From Candidatus Shapirobacteria bacterium (GTDB taxonomy: Bacteria; Patescibacteriota; Microgenomatia; UBA12405), in NCBI GenBank assembly GCA_028704635.1, contig JAQWFB010000003.1:56357-120356 (forward strand): DNA of 64,000 bases. The letters are read 5' to 3'. The notes below the pieces were generated by a model. That model was given only the letters and a program-made list of their open reading frames with translations. It made no database searches and was not told where the DNA came from. Every line of letters begins with the position of its first letter. Positions within the stretch are counted from its first letter, which is position 1. Of the stretch, positions 13,690 to 47,200 are shown piece by piece. Made by a program: the position numbers and the translations under genes.

Positions 13690-13703
13690 AATAAAAATCT
13701 CCT

Positions 13704-21789: not shown

Positions 21790-21809
21790 TTTTGTAATTA
21801 TTTAAGAGT

Positions 21810-22514
21810 ATGGATATCAAAACCACAAAGCTAAACTGGACCAAATCAAAGAATGGAATCTTAATGGATTTTGAACTTGATGTGGTTATTCATCCTTTCA
21901 ATAACGGAAAAATAATTATTAATGTTCCTGGAGCTGATGGGTCCATTAATGGATACGAAGATAAATATATTAAGATTGCTAATTATTTAGTTGAACAAAA
22001 AATCGGAGCTGTGGTTAGGATACCCAACATTTCATCTTTAGGGTTTGGTTGGGATATTAATTTAAGAGAAACGCTTTCTTATGTCTTAGATAATGCCAAG
22101 GAAATCTGTGGTAGTAGTAAACCGGAAATATATCTAATGGGTCTTTCTGCGGGGGCTGGTGCTATTTCTATGACTGCTTGGGAATATCCTGAGGTTACAA
22201 AAATATTATTAGTAGAACCAGCTTTAATTTTTAGTGGTGAACATGGGGTTGAAGGAATTAGAGAATACAAAGGTGAAGTTACTATTGTTGTTGGCAAAGG
22301 AGATACGGCTTTAGGTAAAGAGGTTGGTGATAAATTCTTTGATTATTTTATCAATGCTAAACATAAAGAAATTATTGAGATAGAAAATTGTGACCATCGC
22401 TTTATGGGAGAAACTAATGGAAGAATTTTTAGTGAAGCTCCAATCTACGCTTTTAAAGATGGAAAGAAGATTAAGTTCCCAAATCCAAATGGCGGAATAA
22501 AATTATACGACTAA
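21810..22514 (+). CDS. Alpha/beta hydrolase (dienelactone-hydrolase-like)
   Basis: Nucleophile elbow GLSAGAG. Downstream catalytic-type Asp/His (ENCDHRF). 234 aa. Confidence 0.55.
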   Translation: MDIKTTKLNWTKSKNGILMDFELDVVIHPFNNGKIIINVPGADGSINGYEDKYIKIANYLVEQKIGAVVRIPNISSLGFGWDINLRETLSYVLDNAKEICGSSKPEIYLMGLSAGAGAISMTAWEYPEVTKILLVEPALIFSGEHGVEGIREYKGEVTIVVGKGDTALGKEVGDKFFDYFINAKHKEIIEIENCDHRFMGETNGRIFSEAPIYAFKDGKKIKFPNPNGGIKLYD

Positions 22515-23300
22515 ACTTTTTGCTTTGTCTGTAAATAAGTATTTAGGATCAACACATGTGCCAATACGAGGTAGATCTAATCTATCAGCGTCAAGGCAGG
22601 TCTGAACAGTAATGTTATTGATCAATGGGCTATCTACTTTAGTCAATTCTTCAGGTGATAGGTTATGGTTTTTAACTGCAAACTTTAAAACTTCTATTTG
22701 ATCTTTATTTAAGTATTCCGGAAAACTATTACAGAAATTAACAGCTCTTTCACCATGAGATAGGTCCTCGTATTCATTAGCTCTACAATAATCATGTAGA
22801 ACAGAAAAGAAATAAATTACCTTTTTATCAGTTCCATTTTGATCGGCAATTTGTTTTCCAAATTTATATACATTTCGCCAATGAGAGAAGCCATGTACTC
22901 CAGTAAAATCGATTTTGGTCCCGGCTCCGGCATTATCAAGAAAGGCATATGGATTTTTAAAGATGAGATTTTCTATTAAGAAAAACATCCAACAATTAAA
23001 GTAATTATGTTGTCGAACAAAGAAACCGGTATCTAGTTCATTTATTTTGTCAAAGGTCATAAATGATTCGTGAGAAATATATTTATTACCTTCTCTTATA
23101 AAGTGAATTTTAAAAACAACGGTGGGATTCAAACTTCTTAGGATATAAACCCAATCATCTTTTGTTTCGATATACCAACGCTGAGTGTCGGGATTTTGAG
23201 GTTGTTTACGAGGACAGCCTTTCTTAATTAATTCAAACTCTTCTTCATTATATTCAAACCTAGTGTGAATCGAAGTATTGGCATTATCTTCAAATTTCAT
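22503..23300 (-). CDS. HD-domain phosphohydrolase-like protein with an extra N-terminal domain
   Basis: HGFSHW...SVLHDYCR...HGERA...CLDADRLDL follows the H...HD...D pattern of the HD superfamily. Confidence 0.5.
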   Translation of the reverse strand: MKFEDNANTSIHTRFEYNEEEFELIKKGCPRKQPQNPDTQRWYIETKDDWVYILRSLNPTVVFKIHFIREGNKYISHESFMTFDKINELDTGFFVRQHNYFNCWMFFLIENLIFKNPYAFLDNAGAGTKIDFTGVHGFSHWRNVYKFGKQIADQNGTDKKVIYFFSVLHDYCRANEYEDLSHGERAVNFCNSFPEYLNKDQIEVLKFAVKNHNLSPEELTKVDSPLINNITVQTCLDADRLDLPRIGTCVDPKYLFTDKAKSLVV

Positions 23301-23311
23301 AAGAGGATAAA

Positions 23312-23554
23312 TTATTTAAAAATAGACACTAAAAATACAATGGGTAAAATTATTAATAAAGCTAAAATTATATAAAGAATAGTTTTTATTACTTTATAAG
23401 TTTTATCATAAGTCTTTTTCAGACCTTTTTCTTCTAATTTCCCTTTTAATTTAGCAACATATTTTCTTTTTATTTCAGGCAAAATAAACCAACAAACATA
23501 GAGTAATCCACCAATAATTGCAGCTTTAAGTGATCCTAATAATATTTTTTCCAT
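23312..23554 (-). CDS. Small membrane protein (2 TM), hypothetical
   Basis: 80 aa with two hydrophobic helices. Confidence 0.4.
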   Translation of the reverse strand: MEKILLGSLKAAIIGGLLYVCWFILPEIKRKYVAKLKGKLEEKGLKKTYDKTYKVIKTILYIILALLIILPIVFLVSIFK

Positions 23555-23555
23555 A

Positions 23556-23744
23556 TTATTTTTCTAAACCGTGTCCTCTTAAACACATTTTATACTGTAA
23601 CTCCAATTCTTCGGCATTACTTGGTCTATTTGAAATTTTATCTACACAAATTGATCTGATATGGCTTGGTCGGTATCCATACCAATAGAAAAGAAATGAT
23701 AAAACGATAGTGAAAACTGTTATTGTAATAATCTTCATTTTCAT
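23556..23744 (-). CDS. Small membrane protein (1 TM), hypothetical
   Basis: 62 aa with an N-terminal hydrophobic helix. 1-nt spacing to the upstream ORF. Confidence 0.35.
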   Translation of the reverse strand: MKMKIITITVFTIVLSFLFYWYGYRPSHIRSICVDKISNRPSNAEELELQYKMCLRGHGLEK

Positions 23745-23767
23745 AATTTTTTATATTAATAATCAAA

Positions 23768-23866
23768 AAGCTCCCGTCAGTGATAACTTGCGTTACCCAT
23801 ACAAGTTTCCCTGTATGACCATTGAAGGAGCTCTGACGAGAGCTTACTGCCTTCAATGGCTTTTTA
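23768..23866 (+). ncRNA. Candidate structured RNA or terminator element (nested long hairpins followed by a T-run)
   Basis: GACCATTGAAGG(agctc-tgacga-gagct)tactgCCTTCAATGGC followed by TTTTTATTT: an 11-bp perfect stem enclosing a 5-bp hairpin. Upstream GCTCCCGTCAG can pair with CTGACGAGAGC. No coding potential. Confidence 0.3.
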
Positions 23867-24027
23867 TTTACCATGCCTAAAAGTTTATCCTTCTAGGTTT
23901 AGGTAACAAATTGTACGAACAACTTTATCTTACCATATACCTAATTCATTTAAAGGAAAATGAGGGATAATATAGTTTTTATTAAAAGAGATAACCATAT
24001 GTTATATCCATATGATAGGCCAAATTC

Positions 24028-24138
24028 TTGACTTTAATATTTATTTGAAGTAATATTTATTAGAAGTCAAAGACTTTTGTAGAGTTACAGAAAAACTGAG
24101 CTCTCGAACACGTTGTGTTCGGGGGCTTTTTTTTGGTT
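24028..24138 (+). ncRNA. Candidate small RNA: sigma70-like promoter (TTGACT, 17 bp, TAATAT) followed by an intrinsic terminator about 75 nt downstream
   Basis: TTGACTttaatatttatttgaagTAATAT at 24028-24056. Terminator CGAACACgttGTGTTCGggggcTTTTTTTT at 24107-24138. No ORF in between. Confidence 0.25.
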
Positions 24139-24165
24139 CTATTCATAAAAATTAAATAAAATAAT

Positions 24166-24441
24166 ATGGAAAATATTTGTAAATATGAGTATTTGTTTGA
24201 GAGTAAAGATTTAGCTGAATCGAGTTTTTTATTGGCAAAAGGAAAAATATTAGAATCTATTGAGAGAGAAGGTTCGGTTTGTTGGTTTGTTTTTCAGGAT
24301 AAAGAAAGTTGTGAAGATTTGGTCCGAAAATTTCGCTTTGGAGACTCAACTATACAAGCAAAGAAATTCTACGAAGCTATTCAAACCCTTAAAAAATTGA
24401 TATTCCCGGGAGGTAATCGAAATGATCCAAAATATCCTTGA
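24166..24441 (+). CDS. Hypothetical protein (mobile-element cargo)
   Basis: 91-aa ORF. No recognisable motif. Confidence 0.35.
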   Translation: MENICKYEYLFESKDLAESSFLLAKGKILESIEREGSVCWFVFQDKESCEDLVRKFRFGDSTIQAKKFYEAIQTLKKLIFPGGNRNDPKYP

Positions 24442-24958
24442 GATCGAAAAAAAATTCCCAAACTGGTTTAATCAATTTTCTGATTTATCTTATGAGGATC
24501 AGAAATATATTTGGGAAAATATACCTCTAATTAAAGACTTAAAGGATAATAATTTAGAACATAATACCAATGTTAATGGTAATGATAATGGTGCCTGTAA
24601 ACAAAAAGTAAACACAAAATTAACAACGAATAAACAACAAGTAATAGAAAGTTTATTGAAGTGCAACTATAGGACACCTCCACGACTTATTGCTTCATAT
24701 TTAGAAGTATTGTTTTCAAAATTCGAGGCGAAGGAGGGTCACTGGTTATGGATAGCACAACATTACACGCCCAGATCGACAAACCAAGTTATTTTAGAAA
24801 TACTAAAGCTACATAGTTCTGGAAGGTGTAGGGTAGTTAATCCAGGAGCAATGTTTACTTTTCTAATTAAAAAGAGAAAGAAAAGAAAAGTGTTTAGAAA
24901 CACCAATGGTGTCTATAAACAACAAGGTAAAGAACAGATTGGGAGGGTAAAATGTTAA
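24422..24958 (+). CDS. Hypothetical protein (mobile-element cargo)
   Basis: 178-aa ORF overlapping its neighbours by a few nt (operon-like). Basic C-terminus KKRKKRK. Confidence 0.4.
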   Translation: MIQNILEIEKKFPNWFNQFSDLSYEDQKYIWENIPLIKDLKDNNLEHNTNVNGNDNGACKQKVNTKLTTNKQQVIESLLKCNYRTPPRLIASYLEVLFSKFEAKEGHWLWIAQHYTPRSTNQVILEILKLHSSGRCRVVNPGAMFTFLIKKRKKRKVFRNTNGVYKQQGKEQIGRVKC

Positions 24959-25140
24959 GCGATAAAGCAGTGATCGAATACATGGAAATTTATCGTCTGG
25001 AATATGGAAAAGATATAAATATTGAGGCAGCACGAAAACAAGCAACTAATCTATTGAAATTAATTAAATTAATATCCACTCCATCGACACCACTTAATGG
25101 TTTAATAATTGACAAACGAGGAAAATATGAGAATAATTAA
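24952..25140 (+). CDS. Hypothetical small protein
   Basis: 62 aa, overlapping the previous ORF by 7 nt. Confidence 0.3.
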   Translation: MLSDKAVIEYMEIYRLEYGKDINIEAARKQATNLLKLIKLISTPSTPLNGLIIDKRGKYENN

Positions 25141-25206
25141 ATTGCAACCAGGATTATCATTAGGACTTTTTAATGCCCTCATTGGACAGAGTCTTAATGA
25201 TTCTGG

Positions 25207-26973
25207 TTGCACCAATGGGGGCATTTAAGTATGGAAAACAAATATTTTATATACTGTAGAAAATCTAGTGAACAAGAAGATAGACAGGTTCTTTCTCTGG
25301 ATTCACAAGAAAAAGTTTTGGTGAATTTGGCAAAGGAAGAAAAACTGAATGTTATAGATATTTTGAGAGAATCTGGAACTGCACATTCAATGGGGAGAAA
25401 AATATTTGCAGAAATGAACTTGAGATTATTACGAGGTGAGGCTAATGGACTACTTGTCTGGGATGAATCACGAATTGCTAGAAATGCTGGTGATGGTGGA
25501 ATGATAATTAATATGTTTGATATTGGTAAATTGGTGGAAATAAAAAAACCTGGAAAAACTTATCGAAACACTCCTGATGATAAATTCTTTTTAAATTTAA
25601 TATTTTCGATGTCAAAAAAAGAATCAGATGATAAAGGAGTAAATGTAAAAAGAGGTTTAAATACAAAGGCTGAAAAAGGATGGTTACCAAGTGGAGCAAA
25701 ACCTGGATATATGAATGATAAATATGCAGAAAAGGGAAATAAAACAATAAAATCTGATCCTGAAAGATTCCCGATTATTAGAAAAGTCTGGGATCACTTT
25801 ATTTATCAAGGATACTCAATACCTAAGATTTTAAAAAAAATGAATGATGAATGGGGTTATAGATCCCCTGTTAAGAGATCTATTGGGGGTAAACCAATGT
25901 GTCGAAGTCAATTGTATTTAATCCTTCGCGATCCTTTTTATTATGGCTATTTTGAATATCCAATTGGTAGTGGAAAATGGCGTAAAGGAGCTCATAAGCC
26001 GATGATTTCTGAAGAGGAATTTAATAGAGCACAAGTAATCCTTGGTAGGAAAATGGCTCCTAAACCACATAAAACTGAATTTGCTTATACAGGTTTAATT
26101 ACTTGTAGTGAATGTGGAGCAAGAATAACAGCGGAAGAAAAGTGGCATACAGTGTGTTCTGTTTGTAAAACGAAATTTAATTCAACTCATAATAATATCT
26201 GCCCGAATTGTGGAATAAAAACTGAAGATATGGATAAACCAATTATTCGACATTACATTTATTATCACTGCACTAAAAAGAAAAATCCTAATTGTGTTCA
26301 AAAGAGTGTTGAGATAAAAGAGTTAGAAAGACAATTGGATATTTTGTTAGGTGAGGTCCAAATATCAGATAGGTTTGTAAAATGGGCGTTAAAACATTTA
26401 AATGAGCTTAATGATGAGGAAGTTGAAGATAGAAATAATATTGTTAATGCCCTTCAAAATACCTACACTAATTGTTTAAAAAAATTAGATAATTTAACAG
26501 CCTTGATGATTTCTCCTAATAATGCTGATCGATCACTGTTAAGTGATAACGAGTTTAAAGAACGGAAAACAGAAATATTAGAAGAAAAACAAAAATTAGA
26601 AAATCAGATGAATAATACCGGAAGAAGAGTGGAAGATTGGTTAAAAGAAGTTGAAGATAAGTTTGATTTTGCCACACAAGCAAGGAAAAAATTTAATGAA
26701 CCTGATATAACAATTGAAGAAAAAAGAGAGATGATGTTTAGGATAAGTTCGGACCTCAAACTTTATAACAAAAACATCGATGCTTTACTGGAAAACTTAT
26801 ATGAGCCTCTCAGGAGAATAACAAAGGGAGAACCTACAACAAAGCTAGAGTTCGAAACTAAAGAAATAAAGGAAAAATACGGTAATTTAGAGTCTTATTG
26901 GACTCAAAATCCATTAGTGCTCGGCGGAAGGGATGGGAGTCGAACCCACATGCCATTTCTGACGCAGGTTTAG
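25207..26973 (+). CDS. Large serine recombinase (resolvase/invertase N-domain, recombinase domain, Zn-ribbon)
   Basis: N-terminal YFIYCRKSSEQEDRQVLSLDSQ with catalytic Ser/Arg. ARNAGDG...PGYM recombinase domain. Cys-rich CSECGARITAEEKWHTVCSVC...CPNCG zinc ribbon. C-terminal coiled coil. The last roughly 17 codons (positions 26925-26973) overlap the tRNA-Ser gene on the opposite strand. Confidence 0.85.
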   Translation: MHQWGHLSMENKYFIYCRKSSEQEDRQVLSLDSQEKVLVNLAKEEKLNVIDILRESGTAHSMGRKIFAEMNLRLLRGEANGLLVWDESRIARNAGDGGMIINMFDIGKLVEIKKPGKTYRNTPDDKFFLNLIFSMSKKESDDKGVNVKRGLNTKAEKGWLPSGAKPGYMNDKYAEKGNKTIKSDPERFPIIRKVWDHFIYQGYSIPKILKKMNDEWGYRSPVKRSIGGKPMCRSQLYLILRDPFYYGYFEYPIGSGKWRKGAHKPMISEEEFNRAQVILGRKMAPKPHKTEFAYTGLITCSECGARITAEEKWHTVCSVCKTKFNSTHNNICPNCGIKTEDMDKPIIRHYIYYHCTKKKNPNCVQKSVEIKELERQLDILLGEVQISDRFVKWALKHLNELNDEEVEDRNNIVNALQNTYTNCLKKLDNLTALMISPNNADRSLLSDNEFKERKTEILEEKQKLENQMNNTGRRVEDWLKEVEDKFDFATQARKKFNEPDITIEEKREMMFRISSDLKLYNKNIDALLENLYEPLRRITKGEPTTKLEFETKEIKEKYGNLESYWTQNPLVLGGRDGSRTHMPFLTQV

Positions 26974-27007
26974 CAAACCTGTGGCTTACCATTCGCCGCA
27001 CCCTTCC
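26925..27007 (-). tRNA. tRNA-Ser (anticodon GCT), class II with a long variable arm
   Basis: Minus-strand sequence GGAAGGGtgCGGCgaatggtaaGCCaCAGGTttGCTaaACCTGcgtcagaaatggcatGTGGGttcgactCCCATCCCTTCCg. 7-bp acceptor stem, anticodon loop TTGCTAA, T-loop TTCGACT, discriminator G. Confidence 0.75.
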
Positions 27008-40715: not shown

Positions 40716-40741
40716 AACCCTCCCTAATCGGAGGGTTTTTA
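40716..40741. terminator. Intrinsic (palindromic, bidirectional) terminator CCCTCCctaatcGGAGGG followed by TTTTT
   Basis: Sits between the groEL stop and the convergent minus-strand operon. Same motif as the hairpin at 6078. Confidence 0.65.
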
Positions 40742-41494
40742 ATTCAAATCCAATACTATCGGAAGTAATTTCTTCAAAAATTCTAAAAAATTAGAAATTT
40801 TAATAACACCGATTTTACAGAGAAAGCAAATTAATATAGAAACTATAAAAATAACTAATAACCATCTTAAAATCCAACTTAATGTATTACGTAAAAACTT
40901 TTTCAAAAAACCACCAAAAATTTTAGATTTCTTTTCTCTATTTATTTCAATCATTGCGTTTGTCAAAACTTCTATTCCGTTTTCACCCAGTTTAAAGGCG
41001 TACTGGGCATATTTATCTTTCTCTGAATTTAAATCTTCAGACGCTAAACCTAACAGTTCTAAAAATTTAGCAAACCAAAAAATTATTTTATTCCCTTCAG
41101 CTCTTATCAAACCATATTTAAAGTCATCCTTTAATAACAATCTCTCGATTTCCTTTTTTTTTCGAGAAATCTCTTTGATTTTTGTCGTACAAAAAATAAG
41201 CCACTTATCTCCTTCTAATGATTTAATTACGTCACTACCTGATTTTGTTATTTTATCTTTTTTATCTATCCAACCTATTTGTCTACAAAAAAACAACATA
41301 TCTGGGTCAATCAACCACCCATCCATGTAATACTCAAAAAATTGTTTTGTCTTTAAGAAACCGTTTTCTTGTTTTCTCCACTCTTGCCTTTTCTTATAAA
41401 GGGCAGTCTCTTGTGTTGCATTAACAAGAGGTAAATTATTTTCCCATTCTAATGGGTCAAAAGTAGTCCTTTCTTGATTTATTCCTAAACTCAT
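40739..41494 (-). CDS. Hypothetical protein with a C-terminal transmembrane anchor, translationally coupled to the upstream 1004-aa protein
   Basis: 251 aa. Soluble N-terminal roughly 210 aa, then C-terminal LSWILRWLLVIFIVSILICFLC. Its start overlaps the upstream stop (ATGA, 41491-41494). Confidence 0.45.
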   Translation of the reverse strand: MSLGINQERTTFDPLEWENNLPLVNATQETALYKKRQEWRKQENGFLKTKQFFEYYMDGWLIDPDMLFFCRQIGWIDKKDKITKSGSDVIKSLEGDKWLIFCTTKIKEISRKKKEIERLLLKDDFKYGLIRAEGNKIIFWFAKFLELLGLASEDLNSEKDKYAQYAFKLGENGIEVLTNAMIEINREKKSKIFGGFLKKFLRNTLSWILRWLLVIFIVSILICFLCKIGVIKISNFLEFLKKLLPIVLDLN

Positions 41495-44400
41495 TTAAAT
41501 ACCCCCATAATGGAGTTGTAAGGAATAGTTCCTGCAATCTCTTGAAGGTATTTCTTCTGAACATCTTCAATTTTTGTATTTAACCAATTTATATCTTCAA
41601 TATTTTGATTTTTTCTAAGCCATTTTTTAGTTTTTTCTATTGCTTCTAGTCTAGAATCCAATTCAATATTCCCCAAATATCCAAAAAATATATTCCATAA
41701 ATAATTTACAAAAGGCCAAACCTTTTGTCTTTCATTAGTGTTTAATCTTTCAACAGACAAATCCAATAAGGAAATTAATTTATCAAGATATTTTGGATTT
41801 TTTAACTTCATTATCGGCCCAGCAAAATAGAAATCATTGGTCTCGTTTTCTGCCGGTCCAACTTCATGAACCACACCAGTTGGAATAGTCAATCCCTCTA
41901 TTTCTTCTTTTTTACCTTTAATTCGGTCAATTCTCCAGTCAATTGACACCTCGTCACCAAATCTCCTAATTAAAATTCTATTAGCAATTTCCGCTAAATT
42001 TCTTTTAGTTTCATCTTCACTTTTAACACCATCAGTAAAAATACTTTCACAGTATTTTTTCTCTTCTTTAGTTTTTTTGATAAATTTTCCCAATACTTTT
42101 AATGCATGTCTTTGGTCATAACCAGAAACTTTTGAATCACCAATAAAAGATTTTAGTACTTTAACCACTTCATTTTTGTCGGTTTTCTTTTTTAAATTGA
42201 ATTGAACAAATTCGACGTAGGCCGATGGTAATAAGTATCCAGTATCATCATTTTTATCTAAATAAATTTTATTAATTCTTTCCAACTTTGAACTGTCTAC
42301 TTTTCCAACTATTTCACCAACGGTCACACGGTCGTCGGAGTAGGCAAATGGAATAAAATCAATAAAATCTTGATAATATTTTTTTAATTTATCCGGGTTT
42401 AATTTTTGAGTTGTTCGCATTGCGTCGCCATAATATTTGACATAGTCAGTAATATTGTAATTTTTTGCCCCATCGACACCAAAAGTATTTATTTTTACCT
42501 TTACTTTTTGTGGTTTGGCTTTTTCCAAAATTTCATCAACGGCTAAGTTTTTTAATCTTGTTAATTCCTCTTTTGAGACCTTACTTTCAAGCTCTTTTTG
42601 ATTTTGATTATAATATTCAAAAACGGTTGGAAAATATCGGTTATCTCCTGGTTCAAGTAATTTTTTAAACTCTTTATATTTACTATCAACCGGATCTTCA
42701 ACAACTTTTTCCTGTTTAATATCTTCTATCAATTGAAGCCTTACCGCTTCATCTTTAATTTTTACCCCATCATCTTTTCTATACCATCCAACTCGCCAAA
42801 CTGTCATATTTGCAAATCGGTCACTATCATTATCAATTTCTTTTATTTCAGTAAAAAATTTTCTCAAATCTTCTTTTTGGATTATCCAAGCCATTAAATC
42901 AACATAGTTATAAAGCAACTCAGATTTATTCTCTCCACTGTTTTTTAAATTTTCTAAAAGTTCAAATAAATATCTTTTTTCCTTATCTGATATTATTTCG
43001 GCTAATTTTTTGATGAAATATGATTCATTAAAACGATAATAACGGTTCTCACTAAAAGCCAAAGCGATAATATTTTTTAGTAATTTAGAAATATCTTTAT
43101 CAAAATATTTTCTGATTCTTTTAATAATTATTTCATCACGTGGATCTTTTTCTTTATTAAAAATACTTTCCTTGTCTAAAAATTCACTCAAAAAACTAAC
43201 TTCAGTGGCAAAAAAGTTTAATAATTCTTTTATTCCTGTTTTTGAGGTTATTTTATACAATGCATATCTACCATAAATATCAATTCCATGTTTATTTATT
43301 CCATCAACCACAGCCTTAATCGATTCATGATTATTTGGATCCGTATTTCCACAAAATCTCACGAATGCCTCTTTCACCAGAGAATCACTGTGACTGAAAC
43401 ATATTTCTTTAAGTTCAGGAATTAGATTTGGGTCTTTGTAATATGCCAAAACGTCCAAAGATTTTCTTTTAAGAACTCCATTTTCTTTATCGTCATTTTT
43501 AATTAGCTCAATCAATTTAGCTTTCCAAAAAATCAGACTTTCTTTAGTTAAAATTTCTTTTCTGAATTCAAAAACACCTTCTAAAATCTCTAAAATATTT
43601 CCCCATCTAACAATATTTTCAGTTCTAGTTCCTTTAATATTAATTTTTTCTTCTAATGACAGTATTTGCTCTTTTGAGGCATATTTTGAAAGCTGCTCAA
43701 TTGACCAATTTGAAATCCAGATTGTTTTATCCCAATAAGATTGGAAAATTAATTCAAAAATTTCAGTTTTAGTTTCATTTTTTAATAAATTAGATTCTAT
43801 TGAAGTTATCGCATTAGAAAAATATTCATCAACTGTATCTTTGTGACTTTTTGAGAAATTTAAAAGCCACTCTAAAACTAAATCACGAGTGTCAGTTTCT
43901 AACAAGAATCTTATAACCCCATACCAACTTGGATTTATCGCTTCAAACTTATCTTTTTTAACTATAGCTAAAAAATCAAGTTTTTTTATCGGCTCAGTTC
44001 TTAAAAAATTCTTTGCAGCCAAAAATTCTTGAATAATATGGTGATAAAATCCAGTTTTTAAAATTTTTTTATCTTTTTGATCCGGTCTATCTTCAATTAT
44101 TTTTTGAGAGTATAAATAATTAATTTCGTCTTCGACAACACCATCTTCTTTTGATAACCATAAAAATCTATCTTTATGGATTTCATTTGCCTGAAAATAT
44201 TCCATATTAATCGCCAAATCGTCAAGTTTCTCTAGTAGTAAATTGTCAGGTATTAATTTATCAAAAACATAATTTAAAAAATCAAATCTTGAATCAGGAA
44301 CTCTTTTTTTATCCCTAATAAATTCAATCAAATAATTCAAATATATTTCCCTAGAAATCAAACTATTGTAAGCATCCATTCTCCAAAACATTTCCACCAT

Positions 44401-44505
44401 CTCCTGTGCTTTGATTTTTGTCATTTTAAAGCCAGTAGGGTAGTTAGCCGCAATCAGTTTTTCGATTATTTCACTATTATCTAATCTTCCTGTTATAAAG
44501 GACAT
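41491..44505 (-). CDS. Large hypothetical protein (1004 aa) with HEAT/ARM-like helical repeats and no NTPase motif
   Basis: Predominantly alpha-helical repeat composition, for example NGVLKRKSLDVLAYYKDPNLIPELKEICFSHSDSLVKEAFVRFCGN (HEAT-like). No Walker A motif. Confidence 0.45.
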   Translation of the reverse strand: MSFITGRLDNSEIIEKLIAANYPTGFKMTKIKAQEMVEMFWRMDAYNSLISREIYLNYLIEFIRDKKRVPDSRFDFLNYVFDKLIPDNLLLEKLDDLAINMEYFQANEIHKDRFLWLSKEDGVVEDEINYLYSQKIIEDRPDQKDKKILKTGFYHHIIQEFLAAKNFLRTEPIKKLDFLAIVKKDKFEAINPSWYGVIRFLLETDTRDLVLEWLLNFSKSHKDTVDEYFSNAITSIESNLLKNETKTEIFELIFQSYWDKTIWISNWSIEQLSKYASKEQILSLEEKINIKGTRTENIVRWGNILEILEGVFEFRKEILTKESLIFWKAKLIELIKNDDKENGVLKRKSLDVLAYYKDPNLIPELKEICFSHSDSLVKEAFVRFCGNTDPNNHESIKAVVDGINKHGIDIYGRYALYKITSKTGIKELLNFFATEVSFLSEFLDKESIFNKEKDPRDEIIIKRIRKYFDKDISKLLKNIIALAFSENRYYRFNESYFIKKLAEIISDKEKRYLFELLENLKNSGENKSELLYNYVDLMAWIIQKEDLRKFFTEIKEIDNDSDRFANMTVWRVGWYRKDDGVKIKDEAVRLQLIEDIKQEKVVEDPVDSKYKEFKKLLEPGDNRYFPTVFEYYNQNQKELESKVSKEELTRLKNLAVDEILEKAKPQKVKVKINTFGVDGAKNYNITDYVKYYGDAMRTTQKLNPDKLKKYYQDFIDFIPFAYSDDRVTVGEIVGKVDSSKLERINKIYLDKNDDTGYLLPSAYVEFVQFNLKKKTDKNEVVKVLKSFIGDSKVSGYDQRHALKVLGKFIKKTKEEKKYCESIFTDGVKSEDETKRNLAEIANRILIRRFGDEVSIDWRIDRIKGKKEEIEGLTIPTGVVHEVGPAENETNDFYFAGPIMKLKNPKYLDKLISLLDLSVERLNTNERQKVWPFVNYLWNIFFGYLGNIELDSRLEAIEKTKKWLRKNQNIEDINWLNTKIEDVQKKYLQEIAGTIPYNSIMGVFK

Positions 44506-44686
44506 TTATTTTATAACCTATAAAACACTATTTCTAGTGGCTGTCCACCATCATACCCACTACCACTGGACCACGTCAATAGATTAAAATATATCAAAAC
44601 CCCAATTTACAATTAATCCGCGGATAAATAATCAAATCCCTCCTTAAATGTAGGTTTTTTTGATAAAATAGAGTACTTTTCAATCT

Positions 44687-44760
44687 GACGCGGTAGTCAA
44701 GCGGTTAGACAGCAGTCTGCAAAACTGCGTAGATGGGTTCGACTCCCATCCGCGTCTCCA
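44687..44760 (+). tRNA. tRNA-Cys (anticodon GCA), CCA encoded
   Basis: GACGCGGtagtcaagcggttagacaGCAGTctGCAaaACTGCgtagaTGGGTtcgactCCCATCCGCGTCtCCA. Anticodon loop CTGCAAA, T-loop TTCGACT. Confidence 0.85.
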
Positions 44761-44794
44761 AGTATAAATTCTATCCTATAATTTGCATTTTTTC

Positions 44795-44883
44795 ATTTTT
44801 TTTAGTACAATTCCACCACTTTATTAACTGGCCACAATAGGCGACTGGATTAATAAATCCCCACATTTAAAATCAATAAAACT
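44795..44883 (+). repeat. Cassette-array module (partial): TATAAT, TTTAGTACAAT...CACTTTATTAA box, and left inverted repeat AAAATCAATAAAACT
   Basis: Homologous to 45373-45453 and 45943-46035. The left inverted repeat at 44869-44883 is the reverse complement of AGTTTTATTGATTT at 45313-45326. Confidence 0.5.
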
Positions 44884-44905
44884 GAAGTTAGAAAGGAAGA
44901 TTTTA

Positions 44906-45304
44906 ATGGCGAAACATAATCCTTATAAGTATTGTCGGAACCCAAAAGATTATCAAGATATGGAAGAGGCTTTAGACCAACAAGAAGCTGCAGAAATTAA
45001 GGTTTTTTTAAAATTCAACAACAATGATCTTAAGGAACTTCCACAAATTTGGCGTTTTGTTTTTGGCTTTTTGTTTATTTTTACGACAGTCATCTTAATT
45101 GCTTTTGACAAAAATCCTAAATTTATTAAAGCCCATCCGATCGAAATTATAACCTCATTTGTGCTTATTTTTTTGATCGCAGCCATACCAACTTTTAAAG
45201 CCCTACTAACAAAGAGAAAATTAATTCATAGGTTGGAAAAATTAGAAAATAAAAAATTCCAAACAACCTCAACAGCAAAAATAATTAAATTTCGACCGAA
45301 ATAA
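44906..45304 (+). CDS. Cassette 1 ORF: small membrane protein (2 TM), hypothetical
   Basis: 132 aa. Ribosome-binding site gaaaggaag upstream. Hydrophobic central region FVFGFLFIFTTVILIAF...IITSFVLIFLIAAI. Confidence 0.45.
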   Translation: MAKHNPYKYCRNPKDYQDMEEALDQQEAAEIKVFLKFNNNDLKELPQIWRFVFGFLFIFTTVILIAFDKNPKFIKAHPIEIITSFVLIFLIAAIPTFKALLTKRKLIHRLEKLENKKFQTTSTAKIIKFRPK

Positions 45305-45312
45305 AAACCTTT

Positions 45313-45453
45313 AGTTTTATTGATTTAAGCCGGTAGGTAGACTACATATTAAATATGTATACACCGCCGGCTCTTTTTTTGTTATAATGTAATTACTTTA
45401 TTGATTAGTCTATTGCAGACTTTTTTAATAAATTCCTTGAAAATCAATAAAAC
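45313..45453 (+). repeat. Inter-cassette module 1: right inverted repeat AGTTTTATTGATTT, hairpin/terminator (45329-45380), TATAAT box, left inverted repeat GAAAATCAATAAAACT
   Basis: Bounded by about 15-bp inverted repeats. Internal hairpin GCCGGtaggtagacTACATATtaaATATGTAtacaCCGCCGGC plus T9. Confidence 0.5.
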
Positions 45454-45494
45454 TTTGCAGTTTGTGTTTTAGAAAAAGAAAGGCGGTTTTGTCA

Positions 45495-45878
45495 ATGTCA
45501 AAGAAAATTCCAACGTCGACGCTGGATGAATTTTTTCATCTTACCAACAATGAAAAAATCAAGGTGGCCCACGTTGGCTATACCAAGGAAGGAGATTTGT
45601 ATTATGTAGATGAGTATGGAGATATAGAAAGGGTTGTAAGTAGAGCTAAAATCGTAAATAGTTATATTTGTAATAGCAATGAACCCTCTTCAGAAAATTT
45701 AAGTCTTAAGATCAAAGATTTAGTTGTCCAGAGAACATTTTTGATGTGGTTGGTTATTAAAATAAACAATCTTGAATACAAAAAAGAAAACTGCGGTAAA
45801 ATTAAAATCCCTTTTTCTACCTTCGTAGTTTTAACTTCACTAAACATAGATACAAAAATATTTAAAATAATTAAGTAG
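45495..45878 (+). CDS. Cassette 2 ORF: hypothetical protein
   Basis: The tracked ORF starts at 45462. The likely start is ATG 45495 (MSKKIPTST), preceded by the ribosome-binding site aaagaaagg. No motif recognised. Confidence 0.4.
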   Translation: MSKKIPTSTLDEFFHLTNNEKIKVAHVGYTKEGDLYYVDEYGDIERVVSRAKIVNSYICNSNEPSSENLSLKIKDLVVQRTFLMWLVIKINNLEYKKENCGKIKIPFSTFVVLTSLNIDTKIFKIIK

Positions 45879-45880
45879 TC

Positions 45881-46035
45881 AGTTTTATTGATTTTCATTT
45901 TAAACCGGGCAGGTTTGTGCATTAGCATAAATTATGTCCGGTATTTTTTTATAATTTTTAGTACAATCATTCACTTTATTAATCAGTGTCTTTAAGAGAA
46001 ATTAATAAATCGTTCCTTTAAAATTAATAAAACTA
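45881..46035 (+). repeat. Inter-cassette module 2: right inverted repeat AGTTTTATTGATTTT, hairpin/terminator (45903-45950), TATAAT-TTTAGTACAAT box, left inverted repeat AAAATTAATAAAACT
   Basis: Same architecture as module 1. Hairpin AACCGGGCAGG...TGTCCGGT plus T8. Confidence 0.5.
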
Positions 46036-46047
46036 ATAAAGAAAGAG

Positions 46048-46515
46048 GTGTTATTTTTGGTTAAAGATGTTTTTTTTGTCAGACATGGGGATTATAGTTT
46101 TAGCAGTGGGAAACTTAACAGTGAAGGAATAAGGTTAATCAATATCCTCGCAGACGAGATATTGCCTTACACCCTAAATAAAAAAATTGTGATTCTTTCA
46201 TCATCGGCAATTAGGACTTTAGACAGTGCTGAAATCATTAGTAATAAACTCAATATCCGTTTTGAAACCAAAGAAATATTATGTCCAGATAATAATTTTG
46301 ACCTTAAAGCTGTTTTTAATCTTATTCAATCATATATTGAAGAAGCTGATATTCTTATTTTAGTCACTCATTTAGAGTACACCGATGTATTACCGTATTA
46401 TTTTGCCTGTAAACAATTAAAAACAACTAGTCTTAAGTCATTTCCTATTCCTAAAGGCAGCGCATGGCACATCAATTGTGTCGAAAAAACTATAAAAATA
46501 ATTAATCCCCAGTGA
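46048..46515 (+). CDS. Cassette 3 ORF: histidine phosphatase superfamily (SixA/PGAM-like)
   Basis: RHG motif in FVRHGDYS, and a second His in ILVTHLEYTD. The tracked start is GTG 46048. Alternative TTG 46057 has better ribosome-binding-site spacing. Confidence 0.5.
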   Translation: MLFLVKDVFFVRHGDYSFSSGKLNSEGIRLINILADEILPYTLNKKIVILSSSAIRTLDSAEIISNKLNIRFETKEILCPDNNFDLKAVFNLIQSYIEEADILILVTHLEYTDVLPYYFACKQLKTTSLKSFPIPKGSAWHINCVEKTIKIINPQ

Positions 46516-46579
46516 GTTTTATCGATTTTAAACCGGGCAGGTCAATGCATTTTTTAAATGTATACCTGCTATTTTTTTG
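46515..46579 (+). repeat. Cassette-array terminal module: right inverted repeat AGTTTTATCGATTTT plus hairpin GCAGGT...ACCTGC plus T-run
   Basis: Homologous to the right-hand parts of modules 1 and 2 (shared AAACCGGGCAGG and TTAAATGTATAC). Confidence 0.5.
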
Positions 46580-47200
46580 TCAAAAATTTTCACAAACACC
46601 ATCCGCCCACATTCCTATCTTTTTTTCTTTTGCCATTTTTTCTACTTTTTTGAATTCTGTCTGAAATTTATAATCAATTTTGTAAGTATATTCCATACCA
46701 AATCCTTCCTCCACTAATTTTTTATTAACCAAAGTTCCATCTTCTAAATAAACATATCGTAGCAATCGGTCATATTTATCTTTATTATCTTGACTACTAT
46801 CAGCCTCCAATTTTATTTTTTTATTTTCCATTAATTCTTTTGCTCTTTTAGTTGCCTCTTTTTCAAAACATTCATTTTTTTCCGGGGTATCAATTCCAAC
46901 CAGTCTTATAGATTCCTCTTTGCCGTTAATTTTCACTATCACTGTGTCACCATCAATTACTTTTACCACTTCAACTAATTCTTGTTCTTGTTTCACAATA
47001 GGAGTTGTTACTGCCAGTTTTAGTCTTTCAATTGGATTAATATTCTCTTTTACTACTTTTCTTTGATTTCTATTTTGTAAAATTTTAAAAACCAATATTA
47101 AAAATAAAATTCCAGCTATTGTCCATCCCAAATTTTTTATCTTAAAAATCTTTCTCATTCTCCTATCACTTGTACCAAAACTTTTCTTGGCCGACAACAA
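46580..47200 (-). CDS. Thermonuclease (SNase-like), membrane-anchored
   Basis: VIDGDTVIVKINGKEESIRLVGIDTPE matches the staphylococcal nuclease motif DGDT...RLxGIDxPE. N-terminal TM. The real start is probably the internal Met at 47158, which gives a 4-nt overlap with the upstream gene. Confidence 0.7.
   Translation of the reverse strand: MLSAKKSFGTSDRRMRKIFKIKNLGWTIAGILFLILVFKILQNRNQRKVVKENINPIERLKLAVTTPIVKQEQELVEVVKVIDGDTVIVKINGKEESIRLVGIDTPEKNECFEKEATKRAKELMENKKIKLEADSSQDNKDKYDRLLRYVYLEDGTLVNKKLVEEGFGMEYTYKIDYKFQTEFKKVEKMAKEKKIGMWADGVCENF

What the first reader, a model, noticed from the sequence alone, without database searches (positions are those of the whole stretch)
44795..46579. Tandem array of three small gene cassettes bounded by ~15-bp inverted repeats with homologous promoter and hairpin modules, downstream of tRNA-Cys
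Three consecutive unrelated small ORFs (a 2-TM protein, an unknown protein, and a SixA-like histidine phosphatase) share a fixed layout. Each is preceded by a TATAAT box, a TTTAGTACAAT...CACTTTATTAA box and AAAATCAATAAAACT followed by an AAAGAAAGG-like ribosome-binding site. Each is followed by the exact reverse complement AGTTTTATTGATTT(T), then a homologous GC hairpin (AAACCGGGCAGG...CCGG) and a T-run. Positions are 44869/45313, 45438/45881 and 46021/46515. Cassettes 1 and 2 are both 458 bp. Two readings fit: mobile or shuffled cassettes with variable cargo between conserved recombination-like sites, or MITE-like TIR-bounded intergenic elements supplying a promoter and a terminator. The mRNA 5' and 3' ends could also pair and circularise each transcript.
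Basis: seen in the sequence. Interest (0 to 1): 0.7.

Follow-up and report, generated by a model that had tools for sequence, protein, structure and literature searches.

The report
Swappable gene cassettes with self-pairing UTRs
In an uncultured Candidatus Shapirobacteria genome, three unrelated small genes each sit in the same "expression cassette" (promoter, 5' hairpin, 15-nt box, gene, reverse-complement box, terminator); the two boxes most likely pair the two ends of each mRNA, and related strains carry different genes in the same scaffold.

Summary
AAAATCAATAAAACT occurs six times (at most one mismatch) in the 64-kb window, all within 44869-46529, in alternating orientation around three ORFs. 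The flanking promoter/leader and terminator modules are homologous; the ORFs are not.

Related contigs show one strain-variable locus between tRNA-Cys and a convergent thermonuclease gene. It holds zero, one, two or three cassettes and at least seven or eight cargo families, always in the same orientation. Leader conservation is confined to the -10 box, the arms of a hairpin at the predicted 5' end, and the 15-mer.

The two boxes of one cassette show compensatory double substitutions, a coordinated length change and cassette-specific complementary extensions. They pair better with each other than with neighbouring cassettes. Full-length mRNA folds recover the helix in 19 of 23 cases.

Best reading: autonomous transcription units whose 5' and 3' UTRs form a 14-20 bp closing helix, as in B. 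subtilis hbs or S. aureus icaR, reused as a module. The shared scaffold could let cargo be gained, lost or swapped. Integron, MITE and inverton readings fail their defining tests. The RNA-versus-DNA level is not settled: G.U pairs are not enriched over A.C, and function is untested.

The parts
44687..44760 (+). tRNA-Cys (GCA). It is the fixed left border of the variable locus in all relatives except L017.
   Evidence: ARAGORN; Rfam. The same tRNA precedes the array in L026, L028, L062, L106, L166 and L170, and directly abuts the nuclease gene in L172.
44766..44905 (+). Leader module A, upstream of ORF1. It contains TATAAT 44777-44782 overlapping a -35-like TTGCAT 44783-44788, then a 17-nt spacer, then the -10 TACAAT 44806-44811. 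Next comes the 5' hairpin HP1 (44820-44857; arms TTTATTAA / TTAATAAA), then the 5' box (IRL1), then the RBS AGAAAGGAAG 44890-44899.
   Evidence: Sequence; promoter scan (44782..44811); nhmmer leader profile E=1e-27; HP1 consensus fold with covariation; conservation islands.
44869..44887 (+). IRL1, the 5' box of cassette 1: AAAATCAATAAAACT plus the cassette-specific extension GAAG.
   Evidence: (I5).
44906..45304 (+). ORF1: a 132-aa protein read by eye as having two hydrophobic (putative TM) segments, cargo family '1a'. It has no Pfam hit.
   Evidence: An ortholog is present in L026 and a 3' remnant in L037.
45309..45327 (+). IRR1, the 3' box of cassette 1: CTTT + AGTTTTATTGATTTA, starting 9 nt after the stop codon.
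45328..45381 (+). Terminator 1: hairpin 45328-45372 followed by a T-run.
   Evidence: Fold (-19.9 kcal/mol, z -3.0).
45380..45494 (+). Leader module B. It contains an extended -10 TGtTATAAT (TATAAT 45383-45388), HP1 at 45397-45432, IRL2, and the RBS AAGAAAGG at 45476-45483.
   Evidence: (E=1.3e-25).
45438..45454 (+). IRL2: TG + AAAATCAATAAAACT.
   Evidence: (I4, 17/17).
45495..45878 (+). ORF2: 127 aa of unknown function, from a narrow lineage-specific family. Only 5 cluster representatives were found in 1.84 billion proteins.
   Evidence: The structure model is unreliable (pLDDT 50.6).
45879..45897 (+). IRR2: TC + AGTTTTATTGATTTT + CA, starting 2 nt after the stop codon.
45904..45951 (+). Terminator 2: hairpin 45904-45942 followed by a T-run.
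   Evidence: -22.9 kcal/mol, z -6.5. The NCBI MAG contig JAQUJG010000054.1 breaks inside this repeat.
45950..46056 (+). Leader module C. It contains TATAAT 45950-45955, the -10 TACAAT 45962-45967, HP1 at 45975-46009, IRL3, and the RBS AAAGAAAGAGG at 46038-46048.
   Evidence: (E=4e-20).
46017..46034 (+). IRL3: TTT + AAAATTAATAAAACT.
   Evidence: (I7).
46057..46515 (+). ORF3: 152 aa with a TTG start, a SixA-like histidine phosphatase. This cassette is absent from many relatives.
   Evidence: weak His_Phos_1; called as 152 aa in the NCBI MAG; the NCBI name; fold.
46515..46532 (+). IRR3: AGTTTTATCGATTTT + AAA. Its first base is the last base of the stop codon.
46536..46579 (+). Terminator 3, 'type D': hairpin 46536-46570 followed by a T-run. 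It is the fixed right border of the locus, whichever cassette comes last, and abuts the stop codon of the convergent nuclease gene.
   Evidence: term alignment.
46580..47158 (-). Thermonuclease (SNase) gene, convergent with the array. It is the conserved right anchor and the first gene of the minus-strand run SNase, YjbQ, a 114-aa protein (possibly an anti-sigma factor; no family hit), ECF sigma.
   Evidence: Pfam; synteny; NCBI name.

Best explanation
What it is. The region is a lineage-specific, strain-variable array of autonomous single-gene transcription units. It lies between tRNA-Cys and a convergent thermonuclease operon in Candidatus Shapirobacteria (CPR/Patescibacteria).

Every unit uses the same regulatory scaffold, in this order:
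- a sigma-70-type promoter;
- a hairpin (HP1) at the predicted 5' end of the transcript;
- the box AAAAUCAAUAAAACU, 5-40 nt upstream of the Shine-Dalgarno sequence;
- the cargo ORF;
- the reverse-complement box, 0-13 nt after the stop codon;
- an intrinsic terminator.

How it most likely works. [quoted passage not shown] This leaves the 5' hairpin and the terminator hairpin side by side. The most probable effect is control of mRNA fate: protection of both ends against ribonucleases, and/or coupling of stability and translation, because initiating and terminating ribosomes would both abut the helix. The 5' box is far more constrained than the 3' box. It therefore probably also has a sequence-specific role, for example as a binding or enhancer site that the 3' box masks.

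The shared leader and terminator modules are direct repeats. They also offer homology arms through which cassettes could be lost, gained or swapped by ordinary homologous recombination.

Shown: the anatomy, the homology of the modules, cargo variability at one locus, the conservation islands, and complementarity with compensatory changes.

Inferred: the transcript ends, pairing at the RNA level, the effect on stability or translation, and the mechanism of cargo exchange.
For: Architecture and non-random occurrence.

Same scaffold, different cargo, one locus:
- L026 has 3 cassettes.
- L028, L039, L045, L143 and L166 have 2 cassettes and lack the phosphatase.
- L037 has a decayed cassette 1.
- L069 has an extra ORF.
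- L017 has a single cassette. L062 shows one, but the contig ends in the terminator.
- L170 carries cargo X plus a 64-aa protein.
- L172 has none: tRNA-Cys abuts the nuclease gene.
. Cargo families are unrelated to one another, apart from the cargo-X pair in L017 and L170.

Leader conservation islands (mean pairwise identity): -10 box 0.90, HP1 arms 0.93 and 0.91, 5' box 0.93, against 0.35-0.39 for the segments in between.

HP1 behaves as an RNA helix on the sense strand. In the outer stem, 10 cells changed on one side remain G.U pairs and 2 cells are broken. The inner stem covaries CG<->UA and GC<->AU.

Compensatory changes between the two boxes of the same cassette:
- C6:G10 -> U:A in L026 cassette 1;
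- C14:G2 -> U:A in L143 cassette 1, with C.A in its relatives L028 and L032;
- C14:G2 -> A:U in L037 cassette 2;
- C14:G2 -> U:A in L037 cassette 3;
- the flanking G:C -> A:U in L106 cassette 2;
- coordinated shortening of the A-run and U-run in L170 cassette 2 (UGAAUC/GAUUCA)
.

Cassette-specific complementary extensions occur beyond the core: CUGAAG/CUUUAG, CUAUUUUU/AAAAAUAG and CUCGA/UCGAG.

Pairing measures:
- Core cells are 381/420 Watson-Crick.
- Covariation score 0.148 against 0.096 shuffled, 0 of 500 shuffles.
- Duplex energy for same-cassette pairs is -17.5 kcal/mol, against -13.3 for the neighbour pairing IRR(n):IRL(n+1) and -14.3 +/- 0.5 for permuted partners, 0 of 20,000.
- The long-range helix is in the MFE of the full-length mRNA in 19 of 23 cassettes, mostly with P > 0.9.

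Precedent for 14-bp 5'/3' UTR helices controlling RNase access or translation: hbs (PMC5737220), and icaR and RNAIII (PMC7821165).
Against: There is no transcript data, so the TSS, the terminators and co-transcription of the two boxes are all inferred.

The long-range helix lacks the RNA hallmark. G.U pairs (7 cells) are not favoured over A.C (11 cells).

In several cassettes the helix is degraded: L028/L032 cassette 1, L106 cassette 1, L069 cassette 2 and L037 cassette 3.

The slide-by-one control gives a covariation score of 0.135, close to the observed 0.148, because the sequence is AT-rich and of low complexity.

The cassettes are related by descent, so the permutation statistics overstate independence.

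The near-invariance of the 5' box (7 variants in 28 instances, against 19 in 30 for the 3' box) points to sequence-specific recognition. That could be the primary function, with pairing secondary.
Confidence: 0.5

Rival explanations
1. The boxes are DNA recombination sites of a cassette-capture system. It would resemble an integron or pdif module but with self-contained promoters. An unidentified recombinase encoded elsewhere would insert, excise or exchange the unit between the boxes, or the unit box-terminator-promoter-box plus cargo.
For: - Four unrelated cargo families (1a, 1b, X and a 104-aa protein) occupy the same first position behind the same leader in different genomes.
- blastn similarity to the window ends exactly at the 3' edge of the 5' box (44883) in L017 and L062. 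It resumes within about 3 nt of the start of the 3' box in L062 and L106.
- The phosphatase cassette is present or absent as one precise unit.
- The locus sits next to a tRNA gene that attracts other insertions: a GIY-YIG gene in L106 and partial tRNA duplicates.
- Complementarity between the two boxes is also what terminal inverted repeats would show.
Against: - No recombinase is adjacent in the window or in any relative. The only recombinase in the window is a large serine integrase 18 kb away, at a tRNA-Ser beside a terminase gene.
- No module copy exists elsewhere in 64 kb.
- All seven genuine metagenome hits are at this one locus.
- The gain/loss junction lies inside a direct repeat spanning the tail of the 3' box and the start of the terminator stem, as homologous recombination or slippage would give.
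- In-situ compensatory substitutions among orthologous cassettes are not expected for protein-recognised sites.
- The boxes do not match the attC R''/R' consensus or the XerC/D dif layout.
Confidence: 0.17
2. The 15-mer is a binding site for a trans-acting factor: a DNA-binding regulator, or an RNA-binding protein or small RNA acting on the UTRs. Under this reading the inverted arrangement is incidental or serves looping, and intramolecular pairing is not the function.
For: - The 5' box is almost invariant across cassettes and genomes. The same sequence occurs in 18 of 28 instances.
- Conservation is by sequence, not only by complementarity.
- G.U pairs are not preferred over A.C in the helix.
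- An ECF sigma gene followed by a 114-aa gene that could encode its anti-sigma factor (no family hit) lies next to the locus.
Against: - The motif occurs only here in 64 kb.
- It is non-palindromic.
- Double substitutions at paired positions and a coordinated indel in the same cassette are not predicted by independent binding sites.
- Cassette-specific extensions of complementarity lie outside the shared motif.
Confidence: 0.15
3. The intergenic modules (3' box, terminator, promoter, 5' box; 142 and 154 bp) are MITE- or Correia-like TIR-bounded mobile elements that inserted between pre-existing genes and donated promoters and terminators.
For: - Their size, 14-15 bp terminal inverted repeats and internal promoter plus terminator resemble Correia-type elements. 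This comparison is from my own knowledge and was not tested against a library.
- The module folds as one hairpin: -38.7 kcal/mol, z -6.2.
Against: - The first and last modules are halves. Single-cassette genomes (L017, L062) have the two halves on opposite sides of the gene.
- There is no target-site duplication.
- There are no dispersed copies.
- The covariation links the boxes across the ORF, not across the intergenic module.
Confidence: 0.06
4. The inverted boxes are targets of a site-specific invertase, in the manner of an inverton or shufflon, that flips genes or promoter modules for phase variation.
For: The alternating orientation of six sites resembles a shufflon layout.
Against: - None of the roughly 30 related loci, covering 28 cassette instances, shows an inverted ORF or inverted intergenic module.
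- No invertase gene is adjacent.
Confidence: 0.03

Closest known systems
Intramolecular 5'UTR-3'UTR helices in bacterial mRNAs: B. subtilis hbs (14 bp), S. aureus icaR, and S. aureus RNAIII/hld
   Same: A short (about 14 bp) complementary stretch lies in the 5' leader near the ribosome-binding region and in the 3' UTR just upstream of the terminator of the same monocistronic mRNA. In hbs the helix limits RNase Y cleavage. In icaR it blocks translation and creates an RNase III substrate (PMC5737220, PMC7821165).
   Different: The known cases are idiosyncratic to single genes. Here one UTR pair is a reusable module shared by at least seven or eight unrelated cargo genes in a tandem, strain-variable array. 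The 5' partner lies upstream of the Shine-Dalgarno sequence rather than over it. The helix is bracketed by a conserved 5'-terminal hairpin and the terminator. No experiment exists for this system.
Integron gene-cassette arrays (attC-bounded)
   Same: Both are tandem arrays of small, unrelated, mostly unknown-function ORFs in one orientation at one locus. Cassette number and content vary between strains. An imperfect inverted-repeat element starts right after each stop codon and ends shortly before the next ORF.
   Different: There is no IntI or attI. The boxes do not fit the RYYYAAC/GTTRRRY cores. Each cassette carries its own promoter and terminator, whereas integron cassettes are typically promoterless. 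The covarying partners span the ORF rather than forming a compact attC hairpin.
Correia (CREE) and similar promoter- or terminator-bearing MITEs
   Same: Both are intergenic units of about 140-155 bp bounded by inverted repeats. They can supply a promoter and a terminator and could fold when co-transcribed.
   Different: This unit is not dispersed, has no target duplication, and shows half-units at the ends of the array. The unit that is conserved across genomes is leader...terminator around a gene, not a free-standing element.
pdif (XerC/D) modules of Acinetobacter plasmids
   Same: Both are discrete gene modules flanked by short sites in alternating, inverted orientation, with unrelated cargo.
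   Different: The 15-mer lacks the 11-6-11 XerC/spacer/XerD layout. It is chromosomal, in a CPR bacterium, with no evidence of movement between replicons. This comparison was made by inspection only.

Membership tests
Intramolecular 5'/3' UTR pairing (hbs / icaR type) | Complementary segments of about 7-14 nt or more in the 5' UTR and the 3' UTR of the same gene | tested here: met
   There are 14-18 nt of complementarity in all three window cassettes. Core cells are 381/420 Watson-Crick over 28 cassettes.
Intramolecular 5'/3' UTR pairing (hbs / icaR type) | Both segments lie on one transcript, between the TSS and the terminator | not testable with these tools
   This is only inferred. A -10 box lies about 58-63 nt upstream of the 5' box, and an intrinsic-terminator hairpin with a T-run lies 0-10 nt downstream of the 3' box. 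No RNA data are available.
Intramolecular 5'/3' UTR pairing (hbs / icaR type) | The pairing is maintained by selection (covariation) | tested here: inconclusive
   Four compensatory double substitutions, one compensated flank pair and one coordinated indel were found. Covariation is 0.148 against 0.096 shuffled, but 0.135 when slid by one column. G.U pairs (7) are not favoured over A.C (11).
Intramolecular 5'/3' UTR pairing (hbs / icaR type) | The helix affects mRNA stability or translation | not testable with these tools
   This requires reporter or RNase-mutant experiments.
Integron | A tyrosine recombinase IntI with attI adjacent to the array | tested here: not met
   Pfam scans of the main (non-nested) window ORFs outside those already identified by synteny (GroES/GroEL, PGA_cap, transketolase to PfkB) found no Phage_integrase, only a large serine recombinase at 25207-26973. 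Precomputed Pfam hits for the neighbours in relatives show none either.
Integron | attC sites with R'' RYYYAAC and R' GTTRRRY cores | tested here: not met
   By inspection: the 3' box contains GTTTTAT (2 mismatches to GTTRRRY) at the wrong end, and the 5' box contains ATAAAAC (2 mismatches to RYYYAAC).
Integron | Cassettes are generally promoterless and are expressed from Pc | tested here: not met
   Each cassette has its own conserved -10 box and terminator.
MITE / Correia-like element | Multiple dispersed copies in the genome | tested here: not met
   nhmmer profiles of the leader and terminator find only the array in 64 kb, even at E <= 10. All 7 true hits of the (truncated) metagenome scan are at this locus. 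Whole genomes could not be scanned.
MITE / Correia-like element | Target-site duplication flanking the TIRs | tested here: not met
   The flanks are cttt/ttgc and agtc/aata.
Inverton / shufflon | Both orientations of the segment are found, and an invertase gene is nearby | tested here: not met
   Every cassette in about 30 related loci has the same orientation. No invertase gene is adjacent.
pdif / Xer modules | 28-bp sites with XerC and XerD arms around a 6-bp spacer | not tested
   Inspection only: the 15-18 nt box is non-palindromic and has no two-arm layout.

The most novel reading that the evidence does not exclude
The array is a previously undescribed cassette-capture platform in CPR bacteria. 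Each captured gene would be delivered into, or together with, a ready-made expression scaffold (promoter, 5' stabiliser, terminator). The inverted 15-mers would double as the recombination boundaries recognised by an unknown enzyme and as the mRNA closing helix. Functionally this would be an 'integron with built-in expression modules'.
Probability: 0.12. Interest if true: 0.85.

Novelty: new variant of a known kind. Interest (0 to 1): 0.5.

Why it matters
Only a handful of bacterial mRNAs are known to pair their own 5' and 3' UTRs, and each case looks like a one-off. Here the same UTR pair, together with a 5' hairpin and a terminator, is reused as a portable module around at least seven or eight unrelated genes. 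It also shows natural compensatory variants.

If the pairing is confirmed, it would show that end-to-end mRNA pairing can be a general, transferable expression device. It would also provide a natural, compact 'expression cassette' from the little-studied CPR bacteria, where almost nothing is known about promoters, UTRs or RNA decay.

Independently of mechanism, the locus is a clear example of a strain-variable accessory-gene hotspot in a reduced genome. The cargo consists of small membrane proteins, orphan proteins and a SixA-like phosphatase, and may bear on host interaction.

Tried and rejected
**Database and collection scans**
- The genome contigs pattern scan returned 22 loci. 20 were chance AT-rich matches. 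Only L006 (= L028) and L017 were real.
- The viral-contig scan gave one chance match.
Only 7 of 120 loci were real, so absence elsewhere is not proven.
- Exact-protein look-ups for ORF1 and ORF2 found nothing on record.
- Rfam: no family matches the leaders or boxes.
- Phage DNA similarity, PHROGs and PADLOC: nothing for the modules or the cargo.

**Protein analyses**
- The ORF2 structure prediction was too poor to use (pLDDT 50.6).
- ORF3 has no sequence match in the PDB, but a fold match was obtained.
- ORF1 family 1a against family 1b shows no significant similarity. They are therefore counted as separate cargo, although both look like two-TM proteins with a basic tail.

**Pairing tests**
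- Flank-only complementarity tests were weak: proximal 1779/20,000 and distal 166/20,000 permutations were as good.
- Alternative pairing of the HP1 5' arm with the 5' box is possible in window module B (TTTATTGATT). It is not conserved in orthologs (TTTATTAATT), so it was dropped.

**Readings considered and rejected**
- Integron, MITE, inverton and Xer readings were rejected (see membership tests).
- The large serine recombinase at 25.2-27.0 kb was judged unrelated. It is 18 kb away, sits beside a terminase gene and a tRNA-Ser, and is not seen within the about 6 kb of flanking DNA examined in relatives that carry the array.


Full report

Yes. Reading 44400-47000 shows this order:
- tRNA-Cys (44687-44760);
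- ORF1 (44906-45304; 132 aa, read by eye as having two hydrophobic segments);
- ORF2 (most likely 45495-45878; 127 aa);
- ORF3 (most likely TTG 46057-46515; 152 aa);
- then a convergent nuclease gene.

The 15-mer AAAATCAATAAAACT, with at most one mismatch, occurs at 44869+, 45313-, 45440+, 45881-, 46020+ and 46515-, and nowhere else in the 64-kb window. Allowing up to 2 mismatches gives 13 matches, against 3.2 +/- 1.7 in shuffles, and none of 100 shuffles reaches 13. The same-cassette arms are 18 nt (94%), 17 nt (100%) and 18 nt (89%).

The intergenic modules align with each other. Aligning the three whole cassettes shows similarity only in the flanks. The post-ORF hairpins followed by T-runs fold significantly better than shuffles.

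- Box-to-box lengths are 459 and 456 bp, not both 458.
- Module B has an extended -10 (TGtTATAAT) rather than TTTAGTACAAT.

**2. Anatomy of one cassette**

Each leader contains, in order:
- a -10 hexamer (TACAAT or TATAAT; module A also has a -35-like TTGCAT at a 17-nt spacing);
- within about 8-10 nt, a hairpin HP1 with arms UUUAUUAA / UUAAUAAA;
- 7-11 nt later, the 5' box (IRL);
- 5-40 nt later, a strong Shine-Dalgarno sequence (AGAAAGG).

After the ORF, the 3' box (IRR) begins 0-13 nt past the stop codon. In cassette 3 it overlaps the stop. An intrinsic-terminator hairpin follows within 0-10 nt.

Across 16 diverse leaders, conservation is confined to islands (mean pairwise identity):

| Segment | Identity |
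|---|---|
| -10 box | 0.90 |
| HP1 arms | 0.93 and 0.91 |
| 5' box | 0.93 |
| Segments in between | 0.35-0.39 |

HP1 carries an RNA-type signature on the sense strand. In the outer stem, ten cells changed on one side remain G.U pairs and two cells are broken. The inner stem covaries CG<->UA and GC<->AU.

**3. What organism, and is it elsewhere?**

The nuclease and ORF3 are 100% identical to NCBI proteins named from a Candidatus Shapirobacteria MAG; the longest contig on record is 138,100 bp. A near-identical but fragmented MAG (GCA_028681165.1) has a contig that ends exactly inside the repeated terminator. That is an assembly break caused by the repeats, and it independently confirms the sequence.

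nhmmer profiles of the leader and of the box-plus-terminator find only the three array copies in the window, even at E <= 10. Rfam has no family for them.

**4. Comparative picture**

Related loci were reached through homologs of ORF2 and of the nuclease, plus the true hits of the pattern scans. All lie at one locus: GroES-GroEL, terminator, tRNA-Cys, [array], then on the opposite strand SNase, YjbQ, a 114-aa protein (possibly an anti-sigma factor; no family hit) and an ECF sigma factor. L017 is the exception on the left side: it has no tRNA-Cys there.

The array content varies:

| Locus | Array content |
|---|---|
| L172 (nuclease 57% identical) | None; tRNA-Cys abuts the nuclease stop |
| L017 | One cassette, cargo X of 134 aa plus a small ORF |
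| L062 | One cassette seen, cargo of 104 aa; the contig ends in the terminator |
| L170 | Cargo X (140 aa; homologous to L017's) plus a 64-aa one-TM protein |
| L028, L039, L045, L143, L166 | A 98-111 aa two-TM protein ('1b', weak DUF3784) plus ORF2; no phosphatase cassette |
| L069 | An additional 107-aa ORF inside cassette 1 |
| L026 | The same three cassettes as the window |
| L037 | Cassettes 2 and 3; only the 3' remnant of ORF1, with its promoter deleted |

- Cargo 1a and 1b show no detectable similarity.
- The ORF2 family has only five 50%-identity representatives among 1.84 billion proteins.
- ORF3 has a SixA-like fold.
- None of the cargo hits PHROGs or PADLOC, and the DNA has no phage match.

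Three features are constant. The leader next to the tRNA is always the A type. The terminator next to the nuclease is always the D type, whichever cassette is last. All 28 cassette instances point the same way.

For cassettes with unrelated cargo, blastn similarity to the window stops at 44883, the last base of the 5' box. It resumes within about 3 nt of the start of the 3' box.

**5. Do the two boxes pair?**

Within the 15-nt core, 381 of 420 cells are Watson-Crick.

Changes at paired positions within the same cassette:
- C6:G10 -> U:A (L026 cassette 1).
- C14:G2 -> U:A (L143 cassette 1; its relatives L028 and L032 have the one-sided C.A).
- C14:G2 -> A:U (L037 cassette 2, which also has two U.G pairs).
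- C14:G2 -> U:A (L037 cassette 3).
- The pair flanking the core, G:C -> A:U (L106 cassette 2), and G.U in L026 and L143.
- In L170 cassette 2, the A-run and the U-run are both two bases shorter, while the outer G:C and U:A pairs are kept (UGAAUC/GAUUCA).

In each case the box of the neighbouring cassette did not change. The constraint therefore links the two boxes across the ORF, not across the intergenic module.

Outside the shared core, different cassettes have different but complementary extensions: CUGAAG/CUUUAG, CUUAAA/UUUAAG, CUAUUUUU/AAAAAUAG and CUCGA...AAAAU/AUUUU...UCGAG.

Quantitative measures:

| Measure | Observed | Control |
|---|---|---|
| Same-cassette duplex energy (kcal/mol) | -17.5 | -13.3 for IRR(n):IRL(n+1); -14.3 +/- 0.5 for permuted partners (0 of 20,000 as good) |
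| Cells paired | 78.4% | 73.9% shuffled |
| Covariation score | 0.148 | 0.096 shuffled (0 of 500) |

Folding each predicted full-length mRNA (470-1000 nt) puts the long-range helix in the MFE for 19 of 23 cassettes, usually with P > 0.9.

**6. Caveats on the pairing**

- The slide-by-one control scores 0.135, because the region is AT-rich.
- Flank-only tests are weak.
- The cassettes are related by descent, so the permutation counts are not probabilities.
- In contrast to HP1, G.U (7 cells) is not favoured over A.C (11 cells) in this helix. The data therefore do not by themselves say that the constraint acts on RNA rather than on DNA.
- The 5' box is much more constrained than the 3' box: 7 variants in 28 instances against 19 in 30. 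This suggests a sequence-specific role for the 5' box, with the 3' box as its complement.
- Several cassettes have a degraded helix: L028/L032 cassette 1, L106 cassette 1, L069 cassette 2 and L037 cassette 3.

**7. Mechanism I commit to (confidence about 0.5)**

Each cassette is an autonomous monocistronic unit. Its mRNA starts at or just before HP1 and ends at the terminator. The two boxes form a 14-20 bp closing helix, so that HP1 and the terminator hairpin flank one junction. Both RNA ends and the A-rich segment upstream of the Shine-Dalgarno sequence are then sequestered.

The nearest precedents are these:
- The 14-bp hbs 5'/3' UTR helix limits RNase Y cleavage and couples stability to initiating ribosomes (PMC5737220).
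- The icaR 3' UTR blocks initiation and creates an RNase III site (PMC7821165).

By analogy, the helix most likely tunes mRNA stability and/or translation. A terminating ribosome (the 3' box is 0-13 nt from the stop) and an initiating ribosome (the 5' box is 22-40 nt from the start) would both disturb it.

The direct-repeat leaders and terminators provide homology for loss, gain or exchange of cassettes. The only resolved indel is the phosphatase cassette, comparing L028 with the window. Its junction lies inside a direct repeat spanning the tail of the 3' box and the start of the terminator stem (GATTTT...AAACC-GCAGGT).

Shown: the anatomy, the homology, the variability, the conservation islands and the complementarity with compensation. 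Inferred: the transcript ends, RNA-level pairing, its effect, and the exchange mechanism.

**8. Rivals**

- **Recombination-site or cassette-capture system (0.17).** It is attractive because four unrelated cargo families occupy the first slot and similarity ends at the box edges. But there is no adjacent recombinase, no second locus, no inversion, no attC or dif features, and in-situ compensation is unexpected for protein-recognised sites.
- **Trans-factor binding site (0.15).** It explains the invariance of the 5' box. It does not explain the paired double changes or the cassette-specific extensions.
- **MITE/Correia-like element (0.06).** It fails on dispersal, target duplication, the half-modules, and the direction of covariation.
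- **Inverton/shufflon (0.03).** No inverted instance exists.

**9. Novelty and score**

5'/3' UTR pairing is known from a few individual genes. An array of strain-variable cassettes that reuse one UTR pair, 5' hairpin, promoter and terminator around unrelated cargo has not, to my knowledge, been described; literature searches found nothing comparable. I rate it a new variant of a known kind, with interest 0.5. It is real, clean and testable, but phylogenetically narrow and functionally unproven.

The most novel reading not excluded is a cassette-capture platform with built-in expression modules (probability about 0.12).

Noticed in passing
window 40739-44505 (-): Two genes lie between GroEL and tRNA-Cys only in this window: a 251-aa gene with no family, and a 1004-aa gene with weak HEAT_2 and CdiI_4-like hits. 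In all relatives, GroEL's terminator is followed directly by tRNA-Cys. A remnant of that terminator (aatccctccttaaatgtaggttttttt) still precedes the tRNA here. This is a second strain-specific insertion at the same hotspot. Neither gene has a PADLOC hit.
   Followed up: partly
window 21283-27007: A large serine recombinase (25207-26973; Resolvase + Recombinase + Zn_ribbon_recom) has a 3' end that overlaps tRNA-Ser (26923-27007, minus strand). A terminase small-subunit gene (21283-21789) and a DUF5659 gene lie nearby. This is probably a prophage remnant or integrated element at tRNA-Ser. It is 18 kb from the cassette array, and no link to the array is evident.
   Followed up: partly
window 15327-21203 (-): A 1958-aa protein with a STAND-type NTPase region (AAA_22, NPHP3_N, AAA_16) lies next to the phage-like genes. 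It could be a defence NTPase, but it has no PADLOC hit.
   Followed up: partly
window 23782-23905 (-): A LOOT RNA (Rfam RF03000) scores 88.4 bits against a gathering score of 46.4. It is an orphan structured RNA class lying in the phage-like region.
   Followed up: no
L106 1270-1620 (minus strand as fetched): A small GIY-YIG nuclease gene (Pfam E=8e-16) is inserted just upstream of tRNA-Cys, and the first ~24 nt of the tRNA together with ~27 nt of its upstream flank are duplicated on its far side. L170 has a partial duplicate of the tRNA-Cys anticodon arm between the tRNA and the first cassette. The tRNA-Cys site attracts several kinds of insertion.
   Followed up: partly
L017 752-830, L062 (rc) about 485-395, L069 (rc) about 14550-14480: In these relatives an extra long hairpin (HP2) lies between the 5' box and the Shine-Dalgarno sequence. 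The L017 and L062 versions are homologous (GCARTACATT...TGGATCAA...AATGTATTGCA). Window module B keeps only its first bases (TTGCAGT). HP2 may be an additional cis-regulatory RNA element.
   Followed up: no
L006/L028 (CAYRMT010000005.1) and L017 (CAYSME010000002.1): These two GenBank MAGs are titled 'uncultured Gammaproteobacteria bacterium'. They carry the same locus and gene order as the Candidatus Shapirobacteria contigs, so the depositor's label is probably wrong.
   Followed up: no
P0135: A 1238-aa protein matches the ORF2-family profile in 8 separate stretches. The small ORF2 fold therefore also exists as a tandem-repeat domain in a large protein elsewhere.
   Followed up: no
window 12379-15026 (-): Two adjacent class II aminoacyl-tRNA synthetase paralogs (tRNA-synt_2 plus an OB anticodon-binding domain; 436 and 440 aa) lie in tandem.
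   Followed up: no
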